From contig OZ024753.1 of the NCBI GenBank assembly GCA_964016885.1, positions 25,482,001 to 25,546,000 of the forward strand: a stretch of DNA of 64,000 bases, read 5' to 3'. The notes beneath the pieces are model-generated. The model worked only from the letters and a program-made list of their open reading frames with translations, was not told where the DNA came from and made no database searches. Each line of letters starts with the position of its first letter. Position 1 is the first letter of the stretch. A program made the translations under genes and the position numbers. Below are positions 20,723 through 56,552 of the stretch, one piece after another. This stretch comes from Eledone cirrhosa. Its lineage: Eukaryota.

Positions 20723-22368
20723 AACTTCAGGAGAAGTACCTAGCTAAAAGTAAATCCCTCCACTTAGATTTTGTTGACTTGGAGAAAGCCTTTGACAGAG
20801 TCCCCCGGTCCATTATCTGGTGGGCCCTTAGAAAACTAGGAGTAGATAAATGGCTTGTGAGAGCTATACAAGCCATGTATAAAGGGAGAGTCAGCAAGGT
20901 TAGAATTAACAATGAATATAGTGAAGAATTTAGGGTAAAAGTAGGTGTTCATCAAGGCTCCATCCTTAACCCCCTCCTGTTTATTATTGCCCTACAGGCT
21001 ATAACAGAAGAGTTTAAGACTGGCTGCCCATGGGAACTTCTATATGCAGATGATCTAACTCTCATAGCTGAATCGATGGCTGAACTAGAGAAGAAATTCC
21101 AAACATGGAAAAATGGTCTAGAATCAAAAGGCCTTAAAGTTAACTTGTTTAAGAGTAAAGTTCTAGTATGTAGAAAGGAAAATAGGGCACAGGTGACCTC
21201 TGGGAAATGGCCATGCTCAGTGTGTAGGAAAGGAGTAGGTAGAAATTCCATTCAATACCCCAAGTGCAAACTATGGGTACATAAAAGTAGTGGGATCACA
21301 GGCAAGCTATCTAAGAATGTAGATTTTATGTGGCCGATGCTCAGGTGCAATAAGTAGCAAGTGTCCACAGGATATTAGCTCCTTCTACTGCCCAGATGGT
21401 TCTATAGAAATAGTGGACACTTTCCATTACTTGGGTGACAAAATCAGCAGTGGTGAGGGTGCTCTCAAAGTACAGTAGCCAGAGTTAGAACGGGATGGAA
21501 AAAGTTCAGAGAGCTAATACCGCTGTTGGCCACAAAAGGTTTCTATCTAAAAATGAAAGGCAGATTGTATGATGTTACATGGCAGTGAGACATGGGCATT
21601 GTGTGCAGAGAACCTGTGCAGATTGGAAAGGAAGAAAGCCTGCATGCTCCGTTGGATGTGTAATAGTAATACACAAACAGCAAAACATAAACGAACTAAG
21701 TGAGAAATTAGGAATAAGAGGGATCAGATGCTGTTTACTTGAGAAAAGTTTACATTGGTATAGTCACGTGATGCGCATGAAAGACAACAGCTGTATAAAA
21801 ATGTGCAGGGCGATCAAAATTGATGGAAGTTATGGAGTAGGTAGACCCAGAAAAACCTGGGACGACATGATAAAATCCGACCTAGCACACTTACGCCTCT
21901 CTAAAACAATGTCACTGGATCGAGACCTTTGGCACTATGCAGTAATACAGAAGACCCGACCTTGCCTATGTACAAAGCAAAACCTACAGTCAGTAGGTAC
22001 CTCTTAACCAAATATACACCCCAACCTACTACCCTACTCCATCCTCCCACTCCCACCAACACCACTCTTTCTCTGTAAAGTTATGTTGGTACCACAGAAC
22101 ATCCAGTCCAAACTAAAGAGGTCGTGCAAGTGTCACGACAAAAGCACCCAGTGCACGCTATAAAGTGGTCGTGTAGGTAACACGGTAAAAAGGCTCCCAG
22201 TCAACACTGTAAATGTGGTTGGTGTTAGGAAGGGCATCCAGCTGGAGAAACCCTGCCAGATACAGTCCTATACGAGCGAGACACGGTCACCCGATCAATC
22301 TTGCCTCAAGTGGGACAATTCTCATCTAACCCATGCTAGCATGGAAGATAGACGTTAAACGATGATGA
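20723..22368 (+). mobile_element. RTE family A LINE, 3' part (RT core to 3' tail)
   Basis: LQEKYLAK..FVDLEKAFDRV, GVHQGSILNPLLF, LYADDL, CSVC motif, GRPRKTW; ends ccatgctagcatggaagatagacgttaaac(GAT)n. Confidence 0.92.
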
Positions 22369-36656: not shown

Positions 36657-38546
36657 CCTCATCATCATCATTTTACAACCACTCTTCCCTGCTTGCAAGG
36701 GTGGGACGGGTCTTTTTCAACACAGCATCTCTCCACTTGTCACGGGCCTTCGTCATCTCCACCGTGAGCTTCAGCGATCTGAGGTCTGTTCTCACCACCT
36801 CCGCCCATGTTTTTCGTGGTCTACCTCTACCACGTCTTCCTTCAACTGGCATTTTCTGGCACTTGTTCACCCATCGGTCATCCTCCATGCGCATCATATG
36901 TCCATACCACCCCAGTCTCCTCTCCCGTACACTACATTCTATCCCTCTCAGACACAGTTTCTCTCGCAACACATTCATGCTGGGTCGTTCGCGCACATTG
37001 ACACTGCACATCCAACGGAGCATGCTTGCCTCATTTCTCTCGAGCCGTCGCATATCCTCTGCAGTTGCTGCCCATGTCTCACTACCATGCAGCATCGCGC
37101 TCCTCACACAGGCATCATATAACTGGCCTTTCGTACGCAGGGAGAAACCCTTCTTCGTCAGCAGAGGAAGCAGCTCCCTAAACTTCTTCCAACCCGTCCT
37201 TATTCTAGATACTATGGCCTCGGAACACCCCCCTCCCATGCTAATCTGATCTCCTAGGTACCGGAAGCTATCCACCACTTCTATAGCACCCGCCTGCATT
37301 TGAAAAATGTGCCTATCAATGCGATTTCTACTGTCTAATTTCCCTGTACATATACTGCATACATATTTCTCCCTACCTATTAGTTTACCTCCTATCCCGC
37401 TACATCTCTTGTGTACCCAGGATCTGCATTGTGTGCATTTTATAGAATTTATGCCAGTTCCTTTTCTGCATATCGAACATGGCCATTTCCCTGACGGAGT
37501 CAGAGTTTTGTCCTCTTTTCTACTGATCAACACTTTTGTCTTAGCTAGGTTCACTCTCAGTCCTCTTGCTTCCAACTGCTGTTTCTATATCCAGAATTTA
37601 TTCTCTAGCTCCTCTACTTATTCTGCTATAAGAACCAGATCGTCAGCATAGAGAAGTTCCCATGGACAGCCAGTCTTAAACTCCTCTGTTATGGCTTGGA
37701 GGTATATAATGAACAAGAGCGGGCTGAGGACCGAACCTTGATGTACTCCTACTTGTATCTGGAATTCCTCACTAAACTCCATTCCTACCCTAACTTTACT
37801 AACAGTACCTCTGTACAAAGTTTACACTGTCCTCACAAGCCATTCCTCAACACCTAGTTTCCTTAGGGTCCACCAGATGACAGATCGGGGTACCCTATCA
37901 AAGGCCTTCTCTAGGTCAACAAAGGCTTATTTTAGTATAGTGGCTTATTTTTCTCTAAGAACCTCTCTTGCAATTGTCTCACCAAGAAGAGGGCATCTGT
38001 TGTACTCTTCCCAGACACAAAACCAAACTGCATCTCATCTAGTTTGACCCTTTTTCTAATTAGTTGTGCTAATATCATTTCTGCCACTTTCATAACCTAA
38101 TCCATCAGTTTTATACCCCTATAATTGCTCCTCTACAGAGCATCCCCTTTACCTTTGTAGCAATTTATGAGAATACTGCTGCACCAGTCTTTGGGTATGA
38201 CACGACCATATATAGCCTGATTGATGATGCGTGCAACCAGTTTAGTGCCTACGTCCCCTGATGCCTTCAGCATCTCAGCAACTATTCCCGATGGTCCGGC
38301 AGCCTTACCATTTTTCATTTCCTTAATCACCTCTTGGACCCTATATTCGTCAATCACAATAGTTGGTCCCTCTGTCGGATCTACTGAGGGTAATTTCTCT
38401 CTCTCCCATTCGTTCTCCACATTCATCAGTCTCTCATAATGACATTTCCAGGCCTCCTTTTTCTGATCATTCGTGACACTAAGTACACCGGCATCATTCC
38501 GGACACATTTATCTCCAACATCCTGATTTGCATTACATTGACACAC
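36657..38546 (-). mobile_element. RTE family B LINE, 5'-truncated, relatively young (few stops)
   Basis: KAAGPSGIVAEML, MQFGF, VDLEKAFDRV, GVHQGSVLSPLLF, LYADDL; 300-aa open C-terminal ORF; (TGA)n tail. Confidence 0.93.
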
Positions 38547-40006: not shown

Positions 40007-43000
40007 AGGTGTGACTATGTAAGGTGTGGTAATTATGGTATGTGTCATAGGTGTGACTATATAAGGTGTGGCAAGGATGGTATGATGTGTCATAGGTGTG
40101 ACTATCTAAGGTGTGGCAAGTATGGTATGTGTCATAGGTGTGACTATATAAGGTGTGGCAAGTATGGTATGATGTGTCATAGACGTGACTATATAAGGTA
40201 TGGCAAGCAAGGTATGATGTGTCAAGGTATGATGTGTCATAGGTGTGGCAAGTATGGTATGTGTCATAGGTGTGACTATATAAGGTGTGGCAAGAATGGT
40301 ATGTGTCATAGGTGTGACTATATAAGGTGCGGCAAGGATGGTATGTGTCATAGGTGTGACTATATAAGGTATGGCAAGTATGGTATGATGTGTCATAGGT
40401 GTGACTATATAAGGTGTGGCAAGTATGGTATGTGTCATAGGTGTGACTATGTAAGGTGTGGCAAGGATGGTATGTGTCATAGGTGTGACTATGTAAGGTG
40501 TGGCAAGGATGGTATGTGTCATAGGTGTGACTATATAAGGTGTGGCAAGGATGGTATGTGTCATAGGTGTGACTATATAAGGTGTGGCAAGGATGGTATG
40601 TGTCATAGGTGTGACTATATAAGGTGTGGCAAGGATGGTATGTGTCATAGGTGTGACTATATAAGGTGTGGCAAGGATGGTATGTGTCATAGCTGTAACT
40701 ATATAAGGTATGGCAAGTATGGTATGATGTGTCATAGGTGTGACTATATAAGGTTTGGCAAGGATGGTATGTGTCATAGGTGTGACTATATAAGGTATGG
40801 CAAGCATGGTATGATGTGTCATAGGTGTGACTATATAAGGTGTGGCAAGTATGGTATGATGTGTCATAGGTGTGACTATAGCAAGTGTGGCAAGGATGGT
40901 ATGTGTCATAGGTGTGACTATATAAGGTATGGCAAGGATGGTATGATGTGTCATAGGTGTGACTATATAAGGTGTGGCAAGGATGGTATGTGTCATAGGT
41001 GTGACTATATAAGGTGTGGCAAGGATGGTATGTGTCATAGGTGTGACTATATAAGGTGTGGCAAGTATGGTATGATGTGTCATAGTTGTGACTATAGCAG
41101 ATGTGGCAAGGATGGTATGTGTCATAGGTGTGACTATATAAGGTATGGCAAGGATGGTATGATGTGTCATAGGTGTGACTATATAAGGTTTGGCAAGGAT
41201 GGTATGTGTCATAGGTGTGACTATATAAGGTGTGGCAAGGATGGTATGTGTCATAGGTGTGACTATATAAGGTGTGGCAAGGATGGTATGTGTCATAGGT
41301 GTGACTATATAAGGTGTGGAAAGGATGTTATGTGTCATAGGTGTGACAATATAAGGTATGGCAAGCATGGTATGATGTGTCATAGGTGTGACTATATAAG
41401 GTATGGCAAGTATGGTATGATGTGTCATAGGTGTGACTATATAAGGTATGGCAAGTATGGTATGATGTGTCATAGGTGTGACAATATAAGGTATGGCAAG
41501 CATGGTATGATGTGTCATAGGTGTGATTATATACGGTGTGGCAAGTATGGTATGTGTCATAGGTGTGACTATATAAGGTGTGGCAAGTATGGTATGATGT
41601 GTCATAGGTGTGACTATATAATGTGTGGCAAGTATGGTATGTGTCATAGGTGTGACTATATAAGGTGTGGCAAGTATGGTATGATGTGTCATAGACGTGA
41701 CTATATAAGGTATGGCAAGTAAGGTATGATGTGTCAAGGTATGATGTATCATAGGTGTGACTATATAAGGTGTGGCAAGGATGGTATGTGTCATAGGTGT
41801 GACTATTTAAGGTATGGCAAGTATGGTATGATGTGTCATAGGTGTGACTATATAAGGTGTGGCAAGTATGGTATGTGTCATAGGTGTGACTATATAAGGT
41901 GTGGCAAGTATGGTATGTGTCATACGTGTGACTATATAAGGTGTGGCAAGTATGGTATGATGTGTCATAGGTGTGACTATATAAGGTGTGGCAAGTATGG
42001 TATGTGTCGTAGGTGTGACTATATAAGGTGTGGCAAAGATGCTATGTGTCATAGGTGTGACTATATAAGGTGTAGCAAGGATGGTATGATATGTCATAGG
42101 TGTAACTATGTAAGGTATGGCAAGGGTGGTATGATGTGTCATAGGTGTGACTATAGAAGGTTTGGCAAGAATGGTATGTGTCATAGGTGTGACTATATAA
42201 GGTGTGGCGAGGATGGTATGTGTCATAGACGTGACTATATAAGGTATGGCAAGCATGGTATGATGTGTCATAGGTGTGACTATATAAGGTACGGCAAGAA
42301 TGGTATGATGTGTCATAGGTGTGACTATATAAGGTGTGGCAAGTATGGTATGTGTCATAGGTGTGACTATGTAAGGTATGGCAAGGATGGTATGTACCAT
42401 AGGTGTGACTATATAAGGTATGGCAAGCATGGTATGTGTCATAGGTGTGACTATATAAGGTGTGGCAAGAATGGTATGTGTCATAGGTGTGACTATATAA
42501 GGTGTGGCAAGGATGGTATGTGTCATAGGTGTGACTATATAAGGTATGGCAAGTATGGTATGATGTGTCATAGGTGTGACTATATAAGGTATGGCAAGCA
42601 TGGTATGTGTCATAGGTGTGACTATATAAGGTGTGGCAAGAATGGTATGTGTCATAGGTGTGACTATATAAGGTGTGGCAAGTATGGTATGATGTGTCAT
42701 AGGTGTGACTATATAAGGTATGAAAAGGATGGTATGTGTCATAGCTATAACTATATAAGGTGTGGCAAGTATGGTATGATGTGTCATAGGTGTGACTATA
42801 GAAGGTTTGGCAAGAATCGTATGTGTCATAGGTGTGACTATATAAGGTGTGGCAAGGATGGTATGTGTCATACGTGTGACTATATAAGGTGTGGCAATGA
42901 TGGTATGTGTCATAGGTGTGACTATATAAGGTATGGCAAGGATGGTATGTGTCATACGTGTGACTATATAAGGTGTGGCAAGGATGGTATGTGTCATAGG

Positions 43001-44593
43001 TGTGACTATAGAAGGTTTGGCAAGAATGGTATGTGTCATAGGTGTGACTATATAAGGTGTGGCAAGGATGGTATGTGTCATACGTGTGACTATATAAGTG
43101 TGGCAAGGATGGTATGTGTCATACGTGTGACTATAGAAGGTGTGGCAAGAATGTTATGTGTCATAGGTGTGACTATATAAGGTATGGCGAGTATGGTATG
43201 TGTCATAGGTGTGACTATATAAGGTATGGCAAGGATGGTATGATGTGTCATAGGTGTGACTATATAAGGTATGGCAAGTATGGTATGATGTGTCATACGT
43301 GTGACTATAGAAGGTGTGGCAAGAATGGTATGTGTCATAAGTGTGACTATATAAGGTGTGGCGAGGATGGTATGTGTCATAGGTGTGACTATATAAGGTA
43401 TGGCAAGTATGGTATGATGTGTCATAGGTGTGACTATATAAGGTGTGGCAAGTATGGTATGTACCATAGGTGTGACTATATAAGGTATGGCAAGCATGGT
43501 ATGATGTGTCATAGGTGTGACTATATAAGGGGTGGCAAGGATGGTATGATGTGTCATAGGTGTGACTATATAAGGTGTGGCAACTATGGTATGTGTCATA
43601 TGTGTGACTATATAAGGTGTGGCAAGGATGGTATGAGGTGTCATAGGTGTGACTATATAAGGTGTGGCAAGGATGGTATGATGTGTCATAGGTGTGACTA
43701 TATAAGGTGTGGCAAAAATGGTATGATGTTTCATAGGTGTGACTATATAAGGCGTGGCAAGGATGGTATGTACCATAGGTGTGACTATATAAGGTATGGC
43801 AAGCATGGTATGTGTCATAGGTGTGACTATATAAGGTGTGGCAAGAATGGTATGTGTCATAGGTGTGACTATGTAAGGTATGGCAAGTATGGTATGATGT
43901 GTCATAGGTGTGACTATATAAGGCGTGGCAAGGATGGTATGTGTCATATGTGTGACTATATAAGGTGTGGCAAGAATGGTATGATGTGTCATAGGTGTGA
44001 CTATATAAGGCGTGGCAAGGATGGTATGATGTGTCATAGGTGTGACTATATAAGGCGTGGCAAGGATGGTATGTGTCATAGGTGTGACTATATAAGGTGT
44101 GGCAAGGATGGTATGTGTTATAGGTATGACTATATAAGGGTGGCAATATGGTATGTGTCATAGGTGTGACTATATAAGGTGTGGCAAGCATGGTATGATG
44201 TGTCATAGGTGTGACTATATAAGGTGTGGCAAGCATGGTATGATGTGTCATAGGCGTGACTATATAAGGTGTGGCAAGTATGGTATGATGTGTCATAGGT
44301 GTTACTATATAATATGTGGCAAGAATGGTATGATATGTCATAGGTGTGACTATATAAGGTGTGGCAAATATGGTATGTTTCATAGGTGTGACTATATAAG
44401 GTGTGGCAAGGATGGTATGTGTTATAGGTATGACTATATAAGGGTGGCAAGTATGGTATGTTTCATAGGTGTGACTATATAAGGTGTGGCAAGGATGGTA
44501 TGTGTTATAGGTGTGACTATATAAGGTGTGGCAAGTATGGTATGTTTCATAGGTGTGACTATATAAGGTGTGGCAAGTATGGTATGTACCATA
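40007..44593. repeat. ~4.6-kb minisatellite, 39/42-bp unit gtgtcataggtgtgactatataaggtgtggcaaggatggtat(gat), ~110 copies
   Basis: Direct inspection. Confidence 0.97.
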
Positions 44594-45699
44594 GACGCCA
44601 CCTAGACAAGGAACACTATCTACTAAAGTAAAATAAGCTATGGTCGGAGAGTGAGAAAAGAAAGTTCTACGATGAGTGAGAAACACTATGGTGGTTGGAT
44701 TAATGAACGCAATTAGTACTTTTGAGATGATTCTATTGTTATCTGAAAGATGAGTTTCAAATATTTGGGCAGGGGTGCAATTTCACTGCTTGCCATAGCA
44801 GAGCTTCCTTTGCAGTTTTAGAAGTGGAGGGGCTTAAGTATATATACTGCATGTACATGTGTATTATTATTAGCTCACACATTTTATCACTAAGACGAGA
44901 CTAAGAAAGAAATTAAAAGCCTTCTCACTCCTGTTGGAGGAATTCCTCCCTGGTTGACCTCCACTGCTTTCTGTTTGGTTATCGTAATGCCAGGTGTGAA
45001 GCTGCTCTCATCATGGCCAATTGTGTATTGTTGAAGTTACTTAACCCATAGTTGGGGGGAATGACCATGAACTCTGAGGAGTTCATACACCCTTTTAATA
45101 ACTCTTGTTTTTTGTGCTGCTGGGTTCAACTTACCCTCCTCATCTGACCAGGGTCTGATGGGAGGGCCAGTTTAATCGCCGACTACTCGACATGAAGCAG
45201 GTTGTATTGGGTTACATGGTACCAGTAGCATACAGAAGCCTGATCTGGCCACAGCTCTAACCATGTGTTTATTTTGTTTGATAGTTGATCCAACCATAGC
45301 TATCACTGCCTTTGTTGAAGCCAGACATGTAGATGAAGGTGAAGTGGTAGAAATTATTTTTCGTTATATTTTCTTTTGAAAGCTCTCAAGAGGTAAGGAG
45401 TGGGATTTGCTATAAAAATCAAAACTGGTAAAAGATCTGAACCTGTGCCCACCCCCACACCCATACACACCTTCCGTACCGCTTTGCTTCTTGGTTGTCA
45501 TCATTTGCAGATAGCTGATCTCGTAGGCTTGAGAGAAATGCCTTCTAAATAATTTTTTAAAAGGCTCTTGGGAAAGATTGGCTACATTTCATAAACCTCT
45601 CAAGAGGCAGTTGTACAACTGTGGATCTTTAAATACCAAACTGATCTGTAATAAATCAAAATTTCACAAAAGTAGTGGGGCCTGACTGACCGCTTCTGC

Positions 45700-45960
45700 T
45701 TTGCCCCAGTCTCTGTCGAGACCTCTGGTATCCTTGGTCCCTGCACTGATGATTTCCTCCATGAATTCGGAAATAGGGTGGCCCACTTGAGGTGGGATGG
45801 CTTTGCAGTGGGTATCTCTGGTCATTCTCTATGGTAACGCTTTTGCCCTTTGTTTGCGGGGCATGGTTGAAGCACTGTTCAGACTGGGGGATAATGACTG
45901 TCCCTCCCCATCTCCCTTTCTTTCTTTTTTTTCTTTTTATTTTATTTTCCCTTTTCTGAC
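45700..45960 (+). mobile_element. CRE-like 3' end remnant
   Basis: PVSVETSGILGPCTDDFLHEFGNR...VSLVILYGNAFAL followed by a T-rich tail. Confidence 0.6.
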
Positions 45961-46710
45961 CCCCCTTAGTAGTGTGTTTGTTTTATTAGATACTGCTCAA
46001 TTATTTTTATATAAGTCAAATGTGTGAGCAGCAGTCCAACCCACTTAACTTAAAAGATTTACAGAGTCTCAACAACAAAATATGGCATCGAAGTGGTGGC
46101 AGAGATGTTAGGACGTTGGATTAAATGCCGTGGCATTTCTTTCAGCTCATTGTGCTTTGAGGTCAAACTACGCCAAGGTCAACTTTGCTTTCCATCCTTT
46201 TGAGGTTCATAAATAAAGTACGCAGTACTAAGGTCTATTCTTCCTCTATTCCTCTTTATTACTATTGCTCTCTTTCTCTTTTTCTGGAAGAAACTGGCTT
46301 TGTTCAGAGCCAGAGAGGGATATACTCTACCAGGTTTAGAATGTCCAAGACCGACCATGTGTCATGTTGGTGCCTCTACGACAACATCAAGTGTTAAGGC
46401 ACCTTTCCACCTTCAACAATATCGTAATAAATATTCTCAAAACCCATCTCCTAAGCTCACGGCAGTTTATTGACAGAATGTTTAGAGAACATGCGTCAGC
46501 TATGACACTCCATCATGTCGGCCGGGACCACAAGGCAGACGACATATCAGAGTTGGGTGGCAGTCATGAAACGAAAGGGTTAATATGCTGACACACACAT
46601 ACAATTAAACAGACCCCAACGTGTTTAGTATTGTTTCTCCGTTTAGAAGATACTCGTATTGTTAGGGTACGAAGGATGTGGAATATTGTGTTGTTGTTAG
46701 TCATTTGTAC

Positions 46711-47804
46711 ACCAGATAGAAAAATGCGTACAGCAAAAAAAAGTAATATTGTTGGAATATAAACCTTTAAAAATACAGGACAAGAAACTAAAATAAAACT
46801 TTAAAAGAATAGGACAAGAAACTAAGATAAAACTTTGAAAGAATAGGACAAGAAACTAAGATAAAACTTTAAAGAATTGGACAAGAAATAAAAAATTTTA
46901 CAATAATATTATTTGCAAAATTTTTATTGGTAAAAAATCGAGTTCCACATTCATAGGCTCTGGGTTCCACATTCAGAGGTCGTCGTCAGACCGGGGGATC
47001 ATTTTATCCTGGTTTGAACACCAATTGGGCCATAACCATACCCCTATTTCATCATTCGGCGACACGCCTCATGTGCCATGCATAATGTGAATGGGCCCAT
47101 GGGCCCATGAGCACAGATCTTGAGCAGCAGCGGACGGTCTTGTCGTCCCGCTCATCCTTGATCTTGACCAACCCGTCCATCTTCTCCTTGCATCTTGTCC
47201 TTGAGTTCAAGTCCGGCAGTCCAGATGAATGCATGCCACAGCTTTCTGGTACAGGAAGGGGGAGCAGGAGGACTGGAGGGATGACGGGACAGAGGGAGGG
47301 AGGACCGGTGGTTGAGGGAGGTGCCGTAGTCGGTGGTCAGAGTCGACATCTTGTCCCGGTCGTCTTCTCCATCTTCGTCTGGTGTTGCGGGACCAGAAGT
47401 GCATTCTTGGAGGAGACCTGCAGCTGCATCGGCCAATTCTTCTTGCAATGGTCATTCTGACGGAGCAGAACTGCTCAGCCAACCAACCCCAACCAGAACC
47501 AACCGCTCAGGGGCAACGCACAATGAGAGCATGACAATTATTATGCACTAATCAAGAAGATACTGGGGCATAGCACAGGAAACGAATAAAAAAATTTTGC
47601 CACTAATATTATTGTAAAATTTTTTATTTCTTGTCCAATTCTTTAAAGTTTTATCTTAGTTTCTTGTCCTATTCTTTTAAAGTTTTATCTTAGTTTCTTG
47701 TCCTATTCTTTTAAAGTTTTATTTTAGTTTCTTGTCCTGTATTTTTAAAGGTTTATATTCCAACAATATTACTTTTTTTTGCTGTACGCATTTTTCTATC
47801 TGGT
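46711..47804. mobile_element. Foldback-like unit: ~220-bp inverted repeats (46711-46930 / 47585-47804) around a GC-richer ~650-bp core
   Basis: Arms are near-identical and contain 3-4 tandem ~34-bp subunits (aggacaagaaactaagataaaactttaaaagaat); no clear TSD. Confidence 0.7.
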
Positions 47805-48077
47805 CTACTATTTTTTAAGGCAATGCAAGCAACAACTATCTAATAATTAAATGATCATAGTGAATTACTGACAAGTGATTGACATTTTAAAGTTCTTTTG
47901 AGTATAATTGCAATCTAGTTGAGGCAACTGGCTTAATGACAAATCTAGTAAATCATGAATGCATTTGAGATGATTAGTGCATAATAGTGAATTGGTGAAA
48001 CTTGTGCATTTCAATGGTGTTACAACAATAGATGTAAGTTATATAGTAGTAATACTTTATCATTTTAACTTTTTAGA

Positions 48078-48437
48078 ATGGACAAAAACCCATGCAAAGA
48101 AATGACTTTGACTGCAGTGATTCTCTCCAATTTACTTACAAAGCAAAACGTGGTCAAATACCTTATCATCTCTGATAAAATGCCCATTGAATCACTGAAA
48201 ATCGGAAGCATGGAATTCCTCATAAAATGCACCTATGAATCGGAAGCCATCACATATATCAATGGATATAGGGAGTTGTTCACACTGGAAGACCATCACT
48301 TCATTTGTGACTTCATCAGTTATCTCCACGATTATCTCAGACACCCAATGCCATTGATGAGAGGTGATCCAATGTGTGAGCATGTAACTAATCTTATAGA
48401 AGTTGTTATCGACCACCTGGCTTTTAGTGACATTTGA
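48078..48437 (+). CDS. Orphan 119-aa ORF of unknown function
   Basis: Open, non-repetitive ORF directly preceded by a 43-nt gtaagt...ttttag intron-like segment (48034-48076); no recognisable motif. Confidence 0.4.
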   Translation: MDKNPCKEMTLTAVILSNLLTKQNVVKYLIISDKMPIESLKIGSMEFLIKCTYESEAITYINGYRELFTLEDHHFICDFISYLHDYLRHPMPLMRGDPMCEHVTNLIEVVIDHLAFSDI

Positions 48438-48604
48438 CTGATTTGACTGATAATGATGTATGTGTACATTCTTGTTACTATTTTAAGGCAATGCAAGCAA
48501 CAACTATTTAATAAAATTTAAATTTAAAAATGACCATTGTGCATTACTAGTATGATGACATTTTATTAAGTCACAAAATTAGTCAGTCAGCCATAGAACA
48601 AGGA

Positions 48605-49400
48605 TCAGGTGGCAAAAACATTGGCAAAAATTTGTGTCAATTTAAGATTTCCAACATTGTTCAAATGAATCATATCTGGTTTGAAGTCAGATTTGTCAAA
48701 TTTTGACCAATTTTCAATGTTGTGAAGATTGGGCAAGTTCAATTTTTGAATAATTTCTTTCATGCAGTAATTAAACTTTTCCAAACGAGAATTTCTCTTG
48801 CCCAAGTCATTTTTATTTTCAATTACACTTTGTGGACGTGGAATGACACCACTGTAGAAAATGGGTGTACAGTGGTGCTTTTCCGCTATTTTCTGTAGCC
48901 TTGCAAAGAGACTCTTCTCCTGTTTTTCCGGTTTTGTGCCTCGAATGGGCACTTTGTCCTTAATTTACAAATAAATGATTAATAAAAAATACTTGGGCAA
49001 AAATTATTGTATTACTTTGCACAGCTTTGTAGTGCTAACGGTGCGACGAGGATTCAGATCATTAGAGCCGACATGAACCACCAATACTTTCACAAAAGGA
49101 CAGCAGATAACAATGTTGGCGATTAACATTACCTGGCCCTGATGGGCCCCAGGTATACAAAATATCTAAGTATTTTTGTTGGTATGATAAGTAAATACAT
49201 TTGAATTAATATTTTTAAACCTTCTGGTCATTCGATTTCGCCACATTTCTAATTATGGATTTGTAAAAACTGGCATGAATGTGAATTTGATCAGTCCAAT
49301 TGCCCGATTTTAGTGAAAAGTTTTGATTCGAAATGGAAATACTCCATTTCCGTGCCATTGAAAAAATGAATAAGCCGATCAAAAAGCCACGAAACATCAT
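48605..49400 (-). CDS. SGNH/GDSL hydrolase (esterase), 3 exons: 49400-49221, 49165-49016, 48958-48605; ~227 aa
   Basis: Two phase-0 GT-AG introns (55 and 57 nt) join SIIRNV (block I Ser), FCIPGA (block II), LVVHVGSND (block III), IFYSGVIPR and KPDMIHLNNVG (block V DxxH) into one open frame. Confidence 0.75.
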
Positions 49401-49439
49401 TTTTAATTAAGCGAAATTAGTGGATGCAAATCTCAGAAA

Positions 49440-49826
49440 ATATTGTACACTATTCGCACCTATCGCACTATTCGCACCTATCGGTACAAAAATATAGCGC
49501 ACTATTCGCACCTATCGGTACAAAATATCGCACAACTGTTAATAATACTAGAAGTGCAAACTATCTGTTGAATACCTGGTATATGAAGAGCAACCGATAC
49601 GATCGGTCGGCGATCGGTCTTGAAGAAGAATGAAGAATGAAGTGAAATTTTGGTCTGGTTGTTGTTATCGGTGTTTCGCAGAGATGCCGTCACGAACAAA
49701 GGTGTCAGTGACACAAAGTTGTCCGCTTGAACAAAGGTGTCGGTCCGACAAAGGTGTCAGTCAGACAGACAGTCAGACAGTGTCACAGTCGGTGCAACAA
49801 AGCGATCGATGCGATTAAAAAAAATT
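49440..49826 (-). mobile_element. Helentron/HINE (DINE-1-like) terminal region
   Basis: Minus strand starts at a T-run, then a short palindromic subterminal segment, a (TGTC)n-like tract, repeated gacacctttgt motifs and atctctgcgaaacaccgat...accaaaatttcac; tandem cactattcgcacctatcg repeats. Family assignment is pattern recognition. Confidence 0.5.
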
Positions 49827-50549
49827 TAACTCACATGTTTACCTATATTTTCGCAAACTATTGATAGATTGGTACAAAAAATAGCTTTGATAATAAACAT
49901 AAATTTTTAACGAAGTATTTAAAAAGCATTTTAGCAGTGAAAAGTGAAGTAATGTTTCACACTGACGCAAGTAGGGCCGTTCAGAAATGACGTAGTCAAT
50001 TAGGAGGAGGGGATTCGGCGATTTGACTACATTTGACTAACGTAATCACAATCACAAGAGTTCCGCCGAAAAAAATTCGTCATTTCTGGATTACCTCCCC
50101 TAGCGTCACGCTTACTACTCACTCACTTGAACACAAGATTTATCAGCAAACTTTGATTATAAACTTTTTCCCACTGGACCAAATTTCTAGATTTTTAATG
50201 CGTAAGGATTTACTGTTCATGCTCATATAAGTTTTATCTCAGTTAAATAAAGGAGAGCCGCGCTGTACTGTCGTAAACAGAGGATTGCCAACGAAAACAC
50301 GACCACAACAATATTGCTAAACTAAATATAAACGGACTACCGTCCGTTTAGGATGGTGTCTTCAGGATGACCAAGTGGTTAAGAAGTTCTCTTCGCAATC
50401 AGGGCTGGATTTACCAATAGGCATAGTAAGTCATCGGCCTAGGGCCCACAGGTACATACTCTCTCACACACACACGCATATATATATCTGTGTGTGTGTG
50501 TGTGTGTATGTGTGTGTGAGTGTATTATGTATGTGAAAAACAAAGTCCT

Positions 50550-51250
50550 CCGCAAGACAGCAGAACCTGACTTATCACGGGAACCTGAGTCAGCTCTGGC
50601 CGATTGGACTGACAAAGGCCTCGCCATCCCCCAGTTTACAGATGCCCAACGTAACTAGGAGGACATCAAGTGCAGGTCTTCCTTCAGCCGGATTGAGTTT
50701 TCCATGAACCAATACTGTCTCGCATGCCTCCATCCCGCCTCGCAACCAAACAGATGTACGTGGCTCATTTTCGTGCTCTTCTCATCAACCGGTACCCTTC
50801 TTGATGAGTGCACTCGTATTGGGATAGTCCAGCGCCTTGGATAGAAGCGACGTGTTGCGACTCGTTTATTTCCTCCTGTATTGTCGTTTTGGACGACACC
50901 GCCACCCGCAACGAGAGGAAGATAACTAAATACCGGGTCTTGGCCGACTTTTTGTACCAGTCGCCATCGAGACCTCTCCTGTCCTCGCCCTCTATACTGC
51001 CAATATCCTCCGTAAAGTCGGAAAGACAACAGCCCACCTGAAGAAGTGAAGTGGGGTGGCTGATGCAGCGTGTGTCGCTGGTTATTCTCTGTGGCAATAC
51101 CTTCGCTATTCTGTCTGCATGGTACAGCCGAATACCGCTCAGACTGGTCAGTAGAGCCTCTTCTTTCTTCCTCTCCATCTCTTTCCTTGCTTAATTCTCT
51201 TGTTTTCTTTGTTTTCTTTCCCTTCCTTTTTTGTTGTTTTGTTCTTGTTT
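50550..51250 (+). mobile_element. CRE-like 3' fragment, highly decayed
   Basis: IEATCCDSF..ERKITKY, WLMQRVSLVILCGNTFAIL, T-rich tail. Confidence 0.6.
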
Positions 51251-51791
51251 GATCTCCGTATCAGTAGAAGGTCAGACGCCATGCTTTGCAGAATAGAGTT
51301 ACGCCCCTTTACGGTCTGGGTTCAAATACCGCCGAGGTTAACTTTGCCTGTCATCCTTACGGGGTCGATAAAATAAAGTACCAGTAACGAACTGAGATAA
51401 TTGCTGGCCTTGTGCCAAAAAGTAGAAACAATTATTTTTTTAATTGTAAATATTGTATGCAAAGAGAATAAAGATGTTTTTTTTAGAGAGGGGGGGCGTT
51501 AGAGAGAAAAGGGCAAATGCGGTAGCGAGTTGCGACAAAAATATCGGGAGAGTAACCTCCCCTATTAAGCAGACTTGACATAATATATATATAAATGAAA
51601 ATAGAGAAATGAATTGTTTCTACGTTAGGCACAAGGCCAGCAAATACTCAGTGTATTACTGGTACTTTATTTTATCGACCCCGTAAGGATGAAAGGCAAA
51701 TTTAACCTCGGCGGGATTTGAAAATAGAGAAATTAATGTGAGCAAGAAGCCAATTAATTCATAATATATAAGTGACTATTACGTCAAGATG

Positions 51792-51852
<61 letters not shown>

Positions 51853-52524
51853 CGCATACATATAAAACAACAAAACAAGGACAAAATAATAAAAAAAGCA
51901 TCATTACATAGTCGGCATTAAGTTGTTTCTATGTGAAATATAACACAAGCGTAACTAATTCTCATTTTCTAATACACGACAACTTAATATTTTTAGTGCT
52001 AAAATATATAAGAAATAAACATGAAGCTATTCTACATTTTATAATATTTTGTCCCGTCTGAAATGATCACCAGGCTATGTGTGGCCTAAATCAGCTTTTA
52101 CTGGACTTTTTGTGAATAATAAATGTGTTTGCCCTACATTAATGTTTAAATAAGCTGACCTCAAACGTCTGTTTATAAATCGGAGATGGGCACTTTTTTA
52201 TTTTATGACAGAGCACGTTAAATTATACCTTGAGAATTATTTCTAGTCACATATCTTCTCTTCTATAATTAAGTGGCTTGGAAAACAGAAGCACAGATCT
52301 AGGTCCTTTCTAGATGTTATATAAACTACGATAAGTCTTAATTATATAACATTTAGTAGTTTTCCTTCGATCGTCCTTGGTTCATAAATGTGGCTGTTTA
52401 TTTTCTAAAAACAAACACCAAGAAAAACAACATAAAGAAAATGTACGAGCTTCGTATGAAGTTTAGTAACATATATTTAATGTTTATTATCACTTAGTAG
52501 TAGTAGTAGTAGTAATAAGAGTAC

Positions 52525-52556
<32 letters not shown>

Positions 52557-52656
52557 GTAATAAGAGTACTGGTGGTAGCAGTAGTAGTAGTTATTATTGT
52601 TGTGGTGATAGTTTTACTTCAGTTGTGTTTCTCAGTTTAGGCCACATGTTGATAAT

Positions 52657-53067
52657 ATGGAACACAAGAGACAGCAATCACAATCAAACAAGATCGAATT
52701 CATTATCGGTGGTTTAGCTACATCAGGTGCAGGAGTTTTTACCAATCCGCTTGAGGTTGTAAAAACCCGCATGCAACTACAAGGTGAATTGAAGGCTAAG
52801 GGTCGCTACACAGTGCACTATCGTCATGTGTTCCATGCTTTTTATACGATTGCCCGAAATGATGGTTTTATTGCATTACAAAATGGCTTAGTACCTGCAC
52901 TATGGTACCAGTTTTTCATGAACGGTGTGCGACTGGGATCTTTTCAAATGTTCGACAACATGGGCTTTACACGAAGCAAGGATGGCCGTATTAGTTTTCC
53001 ACAAAGTGTTGTGGCAGGTGCCCTTGCTGGCTGTATAGGAGCAGCTATTGGTAGTCCCTTCTATATG
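52657..53067 (+). CDS. SLC25A35: Mitochondrial carrier SLC25A35/SLC25A34-like (yeast Oac1 family), first coding exon, 137 codons
   Basis: [18 protein letters not shown] carrier signature, [35 protein letters not shown] then phase-0 donor gtaagt; the next exon was not found in the window. Confidence 0.88.
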
Positions 53068-53869
53068 GTAAGTACACTTTAGAACTTTTCTTTTCATATT
53101 TTTACGCATTACAGGTTTAATTCATACGGTATCAACAAACGATAACAGTCTTTTGAATGCAGTAACAATTTAATGAGGGTAAACTTAGAGAAAATGTGCG
53201 TAATTTAAAGTGAAACCGGTAATAATAATAATATTTGTAAAAATATAAAATGAAATATAAATAAATTTGAAAAAAAATTCAAACTTTTTTATTCCTTTTT
53301 TTTTTAAAACAAAATAATAATAATTTTTATAATGATAAAATAAAATATATTTTTTAGTCTAGCATCCTGGCGTAGTGAAATAAATCGATAAGCTGTTGTT
53401 TTTACTGTTGTGGAGTAGCCAGGCATTTATTTCTCTTCTGTAAACTTTTAAATAAATAATCGTATTTTTAGTTAATTTTCGTAACGAGTTGACGTTTAAA
53501 AGAAAAAAAAAGTTTTATTTTCAATAATCATAAGTTAGGCATTTCTATGTAATAAATGGGTTACCATTTTTAATTACGCCGCTTTTCACTAATTTTATCC
53601 AGCAAGCTGTTGTCCTTAGTCCCTGCACCGACTGCCGATTTCCTCCGCAAATTCAGAAAGGCAGCAGCCCCCGTGAGGTGGAGTGGTTGTTGTAGTGGGT
53701 GTCGCTGGTCTTTCTGTCTGTGGGACATAACCGAATCACTACTCAGACTAAGGGATAGAGTCTGTCCCTCTCTTTCTCCCTTTCGTTCATTGCTTTATTT
53801 TCTTTTTTATTTTTTTTCCTTCTCTGCCTTTTGTTTCATTTAAATATTATTATATTGTCTAACTTCACT

Positions 53870-55005
53870 GTGTTATCTTATGACATATACTTTGGTAAGT
53901 ACAAATATAATATAAAGGAGAGGGAAAACAGAAAAGAAAGAAAAAAACACATCTGAGAGCACATACAACAAAAGGCATGCGGAAGGAGTGGACAACCGAA
54001 CCACTACCAGAGTAAAAAATAACAGTATCGCGAGGAGCACCAGGAAACTCTCTAATGACTTTTGAGCAAGCCAGCACGCACACCTTGGGTGATGGTGAGG
54101 TTGAGGTGCTGGAACAACCAAGCACCCTCGTAAGATTCACCAGTTACCTCTGATAGGCAAGCCTCCAGTGAAGATAGGAATCTTGCAGTCAGTACCCCGA
54201 CTCCCCCAAACGTCTCGAATGCCACAGGCTGGAAAATGTAGTTGGCTGACAGATCACGGTTTTTGTTCCATTCAGCTGCGGAAGCTGTAGCTCTCTCCCT
54301 AACTGCAGTATCCAGGAAGTGGGAAGAAGCAAAAGAGTCACTAACTGTGACGTCCCAGACAAGGCATCTGCCTCTTGACCAGGGGCATTGGGTAAGGCCG
54401 TCAGGTCTTTTCCAATCAATTCTGGACGGCCCAGATGGTTCCAAGATTGAGGGGATGTTTGCCCGGGCCAGAGCTCTCTTGAGAATGAGGTTTAGCTCCG
54501 TGTGACATGCTAAGCGACCATTATTCAGGCAGCAAGAAAAACCGTGGAGTCTAGGAGTTTGCCACACTGACACCTCAAACCCATATAGACATCAGCTCCC
54601 ACTCTGAGGGCAATGGAGACACGAAGTTTGTCCAAGCTGAGTAGGCCACCAATGTTAGCCACAGGTAGGGCATCAACCCAGTCACCTGAGTATTTGGCGC
54701 TGGCAGACAGTAAACGGCACTTTGAAACTGATCTGACTGGACGAAGAGGGAGTCGAAGGTGGCCTTCGAACTTGTGCTGTCCCAAACTCTCTGACTTCGA
54801 CTGTCCTTCACCTTCTCAGGAACAGACAAGCCCAACTCACCCCCTTATGGAATTAGTCCATGTTGGAAGGAGAGGATGTTGCTCACCAGGGTGGAGCAAG
54901 TGTGGGTGGAGGAAGGAAGCAGGGGAGAGAGAGGGACGAACACTTACGAAGACCAAGACCCCAAATCGCTTGGGCAATGCAGCCTGATTGCGAGACTCTG
55001 GAGAG
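53870..55005 (-). mobile_element. CRE-like LINE 3' fragment, in the SLC25A35 intron
   Basis: AALPKRFG, SGDWVDALP, RCQCG, KRPDGLTQCPWSRGRCLVWDVTV, FQPVAFETFGGVG. Confidence 0.88.
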
Positions 55006-55450
55006 AGTTTCACTAGAATTATATTTAAATTCGTACTCTTTCTATACAAGTGTATCTATGTTATTGCTTCAGAATTCTGGCCAGTGCTGGATTTAACTAT
55101 AAAGCTATACCTTAGGGCCCATACACTCCTCAAGGGTGGGGGGTGAGGGGGGTCTCATTAAAAAAATATTTTCCTTTTACCATTAGTTTTTATTCTTTAA
55201 CACTAAATCATCAAAACTTATATATATATATATATATATACCTATTGAGTACGCTGAGATGCAACCAGTCCTAGCAGTGATATCTATACTAGCTCCGTCA
55301 ACTTATTATATTATATATATATATATAACCCATGCTAGCGTGGAAGATAGACGTTAAACGATGATGATGATGATATATATATATATATGTCTCTTTTATT
55401 CTGTCCTATACCATAGGACAGAACAAAGGAGAGACACAAAATAAGAAAGC

Positions 55451-55493
55451 AGTCACTGAGGAGGTCACAGAAAGTGATGAAACAGCTTTGACT
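55451..55493 (+). ncRNA. Hammerhead-like motif (degenerate); related copy at 58774-58816
   Basis: agtca-CTGAGGA-g-gtcac-agaaa-gtgat-GAAA-cagctt-tgact. Confidence 0.5.
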
Positions 55494-56552
55494 ATATAAG
55501 CAACCATCTGGTTATTGAACCAACCAACCGGAAATCTATCTATGTATTACTAAAACTCTGTGATTGCTTGCTTGCTTATCTGTATTGTAATACAGCCAAA
55601 ATGGCGCATAATGGGAAAATACTTTGAAAGGAAGTTGTCCCTGAAATGGGAATACAGATGGAATAGAACAAGTTTCACGTAAATCGAAGCACGGGTTCCC
55701 AAGATATGGGGTCATAAACAGAGAGAGAGATAGTGGTTATGAGAGAGTAGATTGAAAGAGAGACATAGGGAGAGGAGACAGAGAAGGAGAATGGAAGAGA
55801 GAGAGAGAGAGAGAGAGCTGGTGGTGTTGTTGTGTATGTGAGTGTGTGTGCATATATATGTGTGTATGACTATGACCAGTGTATATCGATCACAGGCAGC
55901 CACATATATATATACACATACACATATATATACATATATGTATACACACACACACACATTTATATATATATACATACACACACGTATATATATATACAGG
56001 CCTTCTAGTTTCATTTCACATTATATACATGTCTGTATATTTTAATTATTAAAAAATTATTTCTAAGTGAACGTGACCCAACACCCCACTAGTGATCTAG
56101 TATATAATAAACTCAAGTGAACACCAACTGATGCTTGTGTTTTTATTGACAACATGACTCTACCAAAGTATAACATTATCTGTTTCAACACACGTTTTCA
56201 GATAAGAAATCTTGCAAAACAAATTCAAAATGAAATATATATATATGGGGCACTGCATATATATGTAGTGAAATCCCTTCACATGCTGGCCCTAAATGAC
56301 ATCTAGCTGCCATTTCTCTTTTACCTGTATATATATGCACACAAATATATATATATATATAATTAGTACCCTGACGATTTGGTCGGGTATCGAATGTAAT
56401 TAAAGTCAAGTGATGTAACTTCTAACGATAAGCGACTTTTAGACACACCGGATTAATGAAACAATTGTTAATACTCTAAATAAACTCTATTGTACAGCCG
56501 GCCAGGTTGTTCTTCATTATTTTGCTCTTTCTCTCTCTCTCTATATATATAT

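What the first reader, a model, noticed from the sequence alone, without database searches (positions are those of the whole stretch)
48605..49400. Spliced SGNH/GDSL hydrolase invisible as a whole in the ORF track
Seen: removing introns 49220-49166 and 49015-48959 gives a stop-free ~227-aa protein with SGNH blocks in order (S in SIIRNV, G in CIPGA, N in HVGSND, H in DMIHL). The motif style resembles transposon ORF1 esterases, yet the gene has spliceosomal introns. One oddity: the expected LIGDSII block appears split, with FLIG at codons 6-9 and SIIRNV at 48-53, separated by 38 in-frame codons. That could be an insertion or a decayed or non-canonical third intron, which would decide whether the enzyme is active.
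Basis: partly seen in the sequence, partly recalled or inferred. Interest (0 to 1): 0.75.

Follow-up and report, generated by a model that had tools for sequence, protein, structure and literature searches.

The report
Clipped esterase gene in rolling-circle transposon
An esterase-like gene, predicted to be spliced, sits inside a multi-copy jumping gene that is likely of the rolling-circle (Helitron) kind; it lacks the front of its active-site motif, likely through a deletion, so it is probably inactive, and the pairing resembles one already described in fish.

Summary
The two introns and the 227-codon spliced frame are in the sequence. The product has an SGNH fold, lies closest to transposon esterases, and keeps both transposon-specific residues.

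It is not a host gene. It lies inside a 3.6-kb multi-copy element (46712-50353) with Helitron2-type ends: A|TC plus a 5' hairpin, 13-bp subterminal inverted repeats, and CTGG|T. No transposase was found in or beside it.

FLIG probably lies in the leader, and no canonical splice restores G-D-S. A sister subfamily shares the leader and parts from this copy exactly at the catalytic serine codon, continuing with a NADAR-like start (only 10 codons seen). The best reading is an in-frame deletion of a NADAR-SGNH cargo gene that removed NADAR and the first strand, leaving a probably inactive enzyme.

No RNA run was available, so splicing is inferred. Spliced SGNH genes on Helitrons are known in fish (texim). 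This scan already noted a NADAR-SGNH Helitron gene elsewhere in this genome (e1-9506873).

The parts
46712..50353 (-). Non-autonomous Helitron2-type element, 3642 bp, multi-copy, with internally deleted relatives
   Evidence: Depth steps, distinct right flanks and deletion joints 47947>50078, 48216>50080, 48787>50077; termini
50329..50353 (-). 5' terminus: A|TC start and a 9-bp-stem hairpin (50329-50350)
   Evidence: A two-sided compensatory variant is in an X4 loose end, and similarity stops at 50354 in X4 and X5
50306..50318 (-). 5' copy of the 13-bp subterminal inverted repeat
   Evidence: 12/13 match to 46742-46754 in the window. The mismatch at 50316 carries the pairing letter in all laid depth of X1, X4 and X5. 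13 of 2000 control pairs reach this length
46712..46925 (-). 3' terminal arm: 34-bp tandem repeats, subterminal repeat 46742-46754 (30 nt from the end), terminus CTGG followed by T
   Evidence: X4 depth is 48 in bin 46724-46829 against 2.75-3.66 in the two bins to its left
47590..47808 (+). Internal inverted copy of the 3' arm (219 nt, 98%); its terminus reads CTAG|T in diverged relatives
   Evidence: differences in X4 and a loose end in X6
49221..49259 (-). SGNH block I remnant from the catalytic Ser codon (SIIRNV...) to the intron 1 donor
   Evidence: Matches S-I-V-R-H-V after S143 of the ZfL2-1 esterase by eye
49256..49260 (-). Probable chimeric junction: a sister subfamily matches upstream and runs on unlike the window from here
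   Evidence: X1 record 5 and X4 record 14 align over 49256-49395 and 49256-49357, then have 121 and more than 255 loose letters
49270..49342 (-). Candidate third GT-AG intron (73 nt). Spliced, ATG 49347 gives a 185-aa frame and ATG 49358 stops after 10 codons
   Evidence: Uncertain: 36% G+C, and its branch-like site is changed in the sister
49166..49220 (-). Intron 1, 55 nt, GT-AG
   Evidence: Donor reads GTA in X1, X4 and X5
49016..49165 (-). Exon with blocks II (PGA) and III (HVGSND)
48959..49015 (-). Intron 2, 57 nt, GT-AG, two in-frame stops
48605..48958 (-). Last exon with YSG and block V (DMIH); AATAAA at 48567
48078..48437 (+). Convergent intronless 119-aa ORF inside the element, unidentified
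   Evidence: 1 of 1000 shuffles reaches this length; no Pfam family; atlas scores under 0.9

Best explanation
The gene is SGNH-fold cargo inside a multi-copy element that is likely a non-autonomous Helitron2-type rolling-circle transposon, and it likely arose by an in-frame deletion of a longer NADAR-SGNH gene at the catalytic serine codon, so its product is probably inactive. Shown: the element's limits and terminal motifs, its multiple and internally deleted copies, the SGNH fold, the missing G-D of block I, and the point where a sister subfamily diverges. Inferred: a RepHel protein encoded elsewhere copies the element from its TC end to its CTGG end. Copying goes through DNA, so introns are kept. 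The deletion joined the first codons of the parent gene to the esterase serine. It removed NADAR and the first beta-strand, which would leave S, G, N, D and H in place but no proper central strand. The gene then spread passively with the element.
For: Element. Similarity to other copies ends at 50354 with different flanks in X4 and X5, and three large internal deletion joints are seen. Depth falls from 48 to under 4 at the left end. The hairpin has a two-sided compensatory variant; 4 of 2133 window 30-mers fold as well. 13 of 2000 control pairs reach the 13-bp repeat. The 5' hairpin, a 3' repeat 30 nt inside the end and no strong 3' hairpin match the FoHeli3-5 / HLE2-reverse description (PMC5148889 section 6; PMC11417382 section 24). 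Protein. A two-sequence profile hits the ZfL2-1 ORF1 esterase 4C1B at E 9e-10. The window protein keeps residues equal to H191 and S228, called transposon-specific in PMC3905857. The best fold match has Z 12.0, rmsd 3.3, 143 aligned. Deletion. The sister parts at the Ser codon. Its 30 loose letters read N-K-R-I-Y-P-I-S-N-Q in that frame, and F-Y-K-S precedes the junction in the window; this gives the FY, 9 residues, SN spacing of 2 of 11 fetched NADAR proteins, including YbiA. The only homolog found has a weak NADAR tail ahead of its SGNH domain (Pfam E 0.18; local profile E 0.011). Of 8 coding differences between the window and read contigs, 6 change the amino acid, against 80% expected without selection.
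Against: No RepHel was found, so the class rests on termini alone. No empty site was found in the window, and flank diversity at the left end was not seen. Only 10 codons of the sister are visible. They depart from the NADAR motif after S-N (Q, where 10 of 11 fetched proteins have F), and 9 of 11 do not have the FY+9 spacing. About 14 of those 30 letters also match the window's own esterase codons by my count, so the sister could be a diverged esterase. No NADAR remnant is detectable in this copy. The 47 codons upstream of Ser are stop-free, which 365 of 10000 shuffles achieve, and the sister's three gaps there sum to one codon. Eight differences are too few to test selection. The fold model was built on an alignment with SGNH-like sequences, so it is partly circular.
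Confidence: 0.55

Rival explanations
1. The 227-aa reading is the real product: a stand-alone SGNH protein with a hydrophobic N-terminus (possible signal peptide) and a non-canonical block I (F-Y-K-S), active or acting as a lipid- or RNA-binding pseudo-enzyme for the element.
For: The frame is open for 47 codons upstream of Ser (365 of 10000 shuffles). The N-terminal 9-residue hydropathy peaks at 2.7. S, G, N, D, H and both transposon-specific residues are kept. The candidate third intron is much less AT-rich than the other two. An AATAAA follows the stop.
Against: The sister lacks these ATGs, and its 5 listed changes outside the gapped zone are all at codon positions 1-2. The six residues before Ser score -8 against the homolog's block I. 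6 of 8 copy differences change the protein.
Confidence: 0.17
2. An ordinary frameshift pseudogene: the third intron is real, the gene began at ATG 49358, and block I was broken by a small indel just before the serine in the founder copy.
For: Spliced, ATG 49358 gives a strand-like run (K-W-I-F-T) just ahead of the serine before stopping. The ATG has a C-C-ATG-G context in read contigs.
Against: Contigs of X1, X4 and X5 that cover the site have no gap there. The sister has the same spacing and lacks this ATG. The score upstream of Ser (-5) is no better than for the 185-aa reading.
Confidence: 0.1
3. The carrier is not a Helitron: it is a composite of a 1.1-kb foldback/TIR element (46707-47808) and adjacent DNA, moved by a cut-and-paste transposase.
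For: The 219-bp, 98% inverted arms look like TIRs. No RepHel was seen. The 3' hairpin is weak, -1.5 kcal/mol.
Against: The multi-copy unit runs 2.5 kb beyond the arms to a hairpin end with no likeness to the arm tip. No clear target duplication flanks the arms (by eye). The tip varies CTGG/CTAG as the CTRR rule allows.
Confidence: 0.1
4. A domesticated host gene or a LINE ORF1 remnant that gained introns.
For: The nearest solved relative is a LINE ORF1 esterase. LINE fragments occur elsewhere in the window.
Against: It lies inside a multi-copy unit with sharp ends and deletion derivatives. No RT or coiled-coil ORF1 part was found beside it.
Confidence: 0.05

Closest known systems
texim genes of fish (PMC4021074; parts 1-3 of 5 of the text read)
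   Same: Multi-exon SGNH hydrolase gene, related to CR1 ORF1 esterases, without RT, multi-copy and associated with a Helitron.
   Different: texim has up to 15 exons, intact S/G/N/H blocks, testis expression, and a Helitron coding region next to it; the paper found the association only in fish. Here there are 3-4 short exons, no G-D in block I, no RepHel, and the host is probably a cephalopod (not tested). Orthology to texim was not tested: no texim sequence was retrieved.
ZfL2-1 ORF1p esterase, PDB 4C1B (PMC3905857; passages read)
   Same: SGNH fold; residues equal to S143, G165, N195, D279, H282 and the transposon-specific H191 and S228.
   Different: It is encoded by an intronless retrotransposon ORF1 behind a coiled coil and has I-I-G-D before the serine. 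Here the gene is spliced, in a DNA element, and has F-Y-K there.
FoHeli3-5 / HLE2-reverse and proto-Helentron termini (PMC5148889 passages and section 6; PMC11417382 passages and sections 22, 24)
   Same: 5' hairpin upstream of the left inverted repeat, a 13-bp repeat about 30 nt inside the 3' end, and no strong 3' hairpin. Proto-Helentron also ends CTAG and inserts between A and T (PMC4067079 passages).
   Different: Those are described from fungi and an oomycete and carry RepHel. This element is non-autonomous, in an animal, starts TC, and holds an internal inverted copy of its 3' arm.
DINE-1 / HINE non-autonomous Helentrons (PMC4067079; passages read)
   Same: 12-15 bp subterminal inverted repeats, a stem-loop near one end, tandem repeats inside, and deletion derivatives.
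   Different: HINEs have the first repeat 2-4 nt from the end and T-runs at both borders. Here it is 30 nt inside, and the four right flanks seen begin G, A, T and A.

Membership tests
SGNH hydrolase | SGNH fold | tested here: met
   Model with mean pLDDT 69.4. Best Z 12.0, rmsd 3.3, 143 aligned; the listed rows are almost all GDSL/SGNH esterases by title. Foldseek gave no match at E <= 0.001 (best 0.0034). The model lacks exon 1.
SGNH hydrolase | Block II Gly, block III Asn, block V Asp-x-x-His | tested here: met
   PGA, HVGSND and DMIH align with the 4C1B residues
SGNH hydrolase | Block I G-D-S after the first beta-strand | tested here: not met
   Ser is present but preceded by Y-K in both open readings; no canonical splice changes that
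SGNH hydrolase | Pfam curated threshold for Lipase_GDSL_2 or _3 | tested here: not met
   16.4-18.5 bits against cut-offs of 27 and 32.9, on pieces without exon 1
SGNH hydrolase | Ester hydrolysis | not testable with these tools
   Needs an assay
Transposon-type esterase (ZfL2-1 group) | His and Ser equal to H191 and S228 | tested here: met
   H of HVGSND and S of YSG, by numbering the 4C1B alignment
Helitron1 (canonical) | 5' TC, 3' CTRR, inserted between A and T | tested here: met
   A|TC at 50354/50353 and CTGG|T at 46712/46711. No empty site was found to confirm it.
Helitron1 (canonical) | 16-20 nt palindrome about 11 nt from the 3' end | tested here: not met
   Only a 3-bp stem there; the last 52 nt fold at -1.5 kcal/mol
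Helitron2 / HLE2-reverse | 12-16 bp asymmetric inverted repeats, the 3' copy 20-40 nt inside the end | tested here: met
   13 bp, 30 nt inside; 13 of 2000 controls
Helitron2 / HLE2-reverse | [quoted passage not shown] | tested here: met
   9-bp stem 3 nt from the end, with a compensatory variant. The 5'/3' orientation rests on TC/CTRR, not on a RepHel ORF.
Helitron2 / HLE2-reverse | RepHel of the HLE2 clade in an autonomous partner | not testable with these tools
   No whole genome is held; no RepHel in the element or in 44601-46702 and 50358-56359
HINE / DINE-1 | First repeat 2-4 nt from the end, T-runs at both borders | tested here: not met
   Repeats lie 30 and 36 nt inside; right flanks are not T-rich
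texim | Falls in the Texim clade of SGNH domains | not tested
   No texim protein was retrieved
NADAR-SGNH fusion (parent gene) | NADAR domain upstream of the esterase | tested here: inconclusive
   Absent from this copy. The sister's 10 visible codons partly fit the NADAR N-terminal motif.

The most novel reading that the evidence does not exclude
Helitron2-type elements in fish and in a mollusc carry the same transposon-type esterase cargo, ancestrally fused to a NADAR ADP-ribose eraser. The association would then be an ancient working part of these elements and not a fish-specific capture. This family, with reverse-type termini so far described in fungi and oomycetes, would express a stand-alone spliced SGNH protein with a rebuilt first strand that still binds lipid or RNA.
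Probability: 0.15. Interest if true: 0.6.

Novelty: new member of a known kind. Interest (0 to 1): 0.32.

Why it matters
It explains how a transposon-type esterase can have spliceosomal introns: it travels in a DNA element. It would extend the Helitron-SGNH pairing from fish to what is probably a cephalopod, which bears on the texim paper's view that the capture was fish-specific. It also adds an animal example of reverse-type Helitron2 ends. This copy is probably a dead passenger, so it says little about function by itself. The intact sister gene is the thing to recover.

Tried and rejected
No whole genome is held, so assembled paralogs could not be compared.

No RNA holder was listed; this is no evidence on expression. 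Of 13 listed runs, 7 were laid (X1, X4-X9), all as contigs. Depth is not copy number. X6-X9 gave only patchy cover and none covers 49256-49270. The tables were cut: 12 substitution rows and 2 indel rows were not shown.

Word-based protein searches found little: none of 28 candidates, only self among 1456, and 2 weak hits among 7995 (E 0.0013 and 0.55). The single-sequence PDB search gave 2 chance hits. The first fold model had pLDDT 45.3 and was not used.

The terminus pattern was not found in metagenome contigs. No confirmed relative was found among 116 metagenome or 213 viral candidates. Rfam gave 5 matches, all below threshold. The empty-site test within the window gave no spanning hit.

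My first idea, a one-base frameshift particular to this copy, was dropped because X1, X4 and X5 show no gap there. A further intron inside exon 2 (strong GT at 49132) was rejected because the homolog aligns straight through it. A programmed -1 frameshift was considered; I saw no slippery heptamer by eye.

Literature searches: Helitron+SGNH, Helitron+octopus+GDSL (34), Helitron+esterase+intron+cephalopod (61), NADAR+Helitron (67), NADAR+SGNH (93) and texim+Helitron (94) listed no report of a cephalopod Helitron with a spliced SGNH gene. I saw listings only for most hits; the library lacks subscription journals and Repbase. The HELIANO supplement has no occurrence of GDSL, SGNH or NADAR.

Full report
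Observation. Removing 49220-49166 and 49015-48959 gives 227 codons and a stop. Both introns are GT-AG and 18% G+C. Against the only homolog found among 1.84 billion representatives (P0001, E 1.8e-6), this pair ranks first of 126 stop-free two-intron models, though the runner-up is only 2 points behind. No RNA run was listed, so splicing is inferred from DNA.

The protein. Pfam gives GDSL families only below threshold. The language-model atlas scores exon 3 at up to 0.96, and its ten best named hits share a GDSL family or clan. A profile of the window's exons 2-3 with P0001 hits the zebrafish ZfL2-1 ORF1 esterase 4C1B at E 9e-10; the other 4 matches have E above 0.7. Block I of that profile comes from P0001 alone. 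By numbering that alignment, the window protein has residues equal to G165, N195, D279 and H282, and to H191 and S228, which PMC3905857 calls transposon-specific (passages). SIIRNV resembles S-I-V-R-H-V after S143. A model from a four-sequence alignment (pLDDT 69.4) matches SGNH structures at Z up to 12.0. This is partly circular, and Foldseek gave nothing at E <= 0.001.

The gene sits in a mobile element. Seven of 13 listed runs were laid. Contigs match from about 46717 to 50354. At the right end, X4 and X5 contigs share the last letters with the window and then go into different flanks. Three large internal deletions join 47947, 48216 and 48787 to about 50078. At the left end, X4 depth falls from 48 to under 4. 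In X4 the esterase part has depth 4 against 40-56 for the left part, a hint that most copies lack it; depth is not a copy number. Nine runs of five studies hold the stretch, under six organism labels, but cover in X6-X9 is patchy. The host looks like an octopus from its repeats. That is recalled resemblance plus a remark in note e1-9545450, and was not tested.

Class of element. Read on the minus strand, the element starts A|TC, followed by a 9-bp hairpin and a 13-bp repeat. It ends with the inverse of that repeat 30 nt inside a CTGG|T terminus. Four of 2133 window 30-mers fold as well as the hairpin, and 13 of 2000 control pairs give so long a repeat. The repeat's one mismatch is absent from the read contigs, and one contig has a two-sided compensatory change in the hairpin. 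The last 219 nt are repeated inverted inside the element, and there diverged relatives read CTAG|T. The canonical 3' palindrome is missing, and the T-rich borders of HINEs are missing too (PMC4067079 passages). The layout fits FoHeli3-5 and HLE2-reverse (PMC5148889 section 6; PMC11417382 section 24). Self-insertion in the opposite orientation, as proposed in PMC5148889 (passages), could explain the internal inverted arm; that is inference. No RepHel was found in or beside the element and no empty site in the window, so family membership rests on termini.

The block I question. No AG lies between 49270 and the serine codon, so no canonical intron can bring G-D to it. A GT-AG candidate at 49342-49270 exists. 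Spliced, ATG 49347 gives 185 aa beginning M-D-F-Y-K-S, and ATG 49358 stops after 10 codons. Contigs of X1, X4 and X5 have no gap near the serine, so this copy is not a private frameshift or an assembly error. A sister subfamily, about 85% alike over 49256-49395, has no ATG at 49400, 49397 or 49358 (loose ends, read by eye). FLIG is therefore probably leader sequence. Against this, the 47 codons are stop-free (365 of 10000 shuffles), the sister's gaps sum to one codon, and the candidate intron is 36% G+C.

The junction. The sister leaves the window exactly at the serine codon. A fall from 85% identity in the leader to about half inside an exon points to a recombination break. Its 30 visible letters read N-K-R-I-Y-P-I-S-N-Q in that frame, and F-Y-K-S precedes the break in the window. 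That gives the FY, nine residues, SN spacing of YbiA and one phage protein, 2 of 11 NADARs fetched. It departs after S-N, where 10 of 11 have F. P0001 has a weak NADAR tail before its esterase. Note e1-9506873 reports a NADAR-SGNH gene in a Helitron elsewhere in this genome; it gave me this lead and I could not see its DNA. The simplest account is an in-frame deletion from the first codons of such a gene to the esterase serine, which removes NADAR, the first strand and G-D in one step. About 14 of the 30 letters also match the window's esterase codons by my count, so a diverged esterase sister is not excluded.

Function. With the first strand and G-D gone, activity is unlikely; this is inference from the fold. 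Six of 8 coding differences between the window and read contigs change the protein, near the 80% expected without selection, on small numbers. Intact relatives would plausibly act as the ZfL2-1 esterase does on short acyl esters; their role in a Helitron is unknown.

Known and new. Spliced SGNH genes on Helitrons are known as fish texim (PMC4021074, parts 1-3 of 5), which found no such link outside fish. NADAR domains are known in other transposons (PMC12477816 passages). HELIANO's captured-domain section and supplement do not name GDSL, SGNH or NADAR. My searches listed no cephalopod case, but Repbase and subscription journals were not searched, and supplements of the other papers were not read. 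Passages of PMC6431247 and PMC13282606 gave background only. Verdict: a real feature, a new member of a known kind, probably a dead copy, and already seen by this scan at another locus of the same genome.

Noticed in passing
window 48078-48437 (+): Intronless 119-aa ORF convergent with the esterase gene inside the element, with AATAAA at 48510. One of 1000 shuffles reaches its length, there is no Pfam family, atlas scores are under 0.9, and all 4 listed differences change the protein.
   Followed up: partly
window 47813-47846 and 48481-48514: 34-bp direct repeat (97%) flanking that ORF, within a longer 76% duplication.
   Followed up: no
window 46926-47589: 664-bp, 53% G+C loop between the two inverted arms. 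It is multi-copy with the element and has no Pfam match in six frames.
   Followed up: partly
window 49432-49575 (-): Possible 144-nt leader intron (CAG|GTATTC ... TTCTGAG) holding short tandem repeats; untested without RNA.
   Followed up: no
window 52612-53082 (+): Mitochondrial carrier exon (Pfam E 8e-22), oriented away from the element and about 2.3 kb from its 5' end.
   Followed up: no
window 40007-44594: Satellite of 42/45-bp units, 106 copies, strongly G-skewed, giving long stop-free frames.
   Followed up: no
window 36673-37584 (-), 18251-19192 (-), 20725-21357 (+): PHD-finger ORF and two reverse transcriptase fragments, probably LINE remnants.
   Followed up: no
window 54050-54990 (-): Broken frames recalling the C-terminal endonuclease region of CRE-type non-LTR elements (recalled motif; no Pfam hit).
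   Followed up: no
proteins P0002 and P0003: P0002 is an ORF1-like SGNH protein with G-D-N in place of G-D-S. P0003, from a tilapia, joins an XPG-like domain to an SGNH domain.
   Followed up: no
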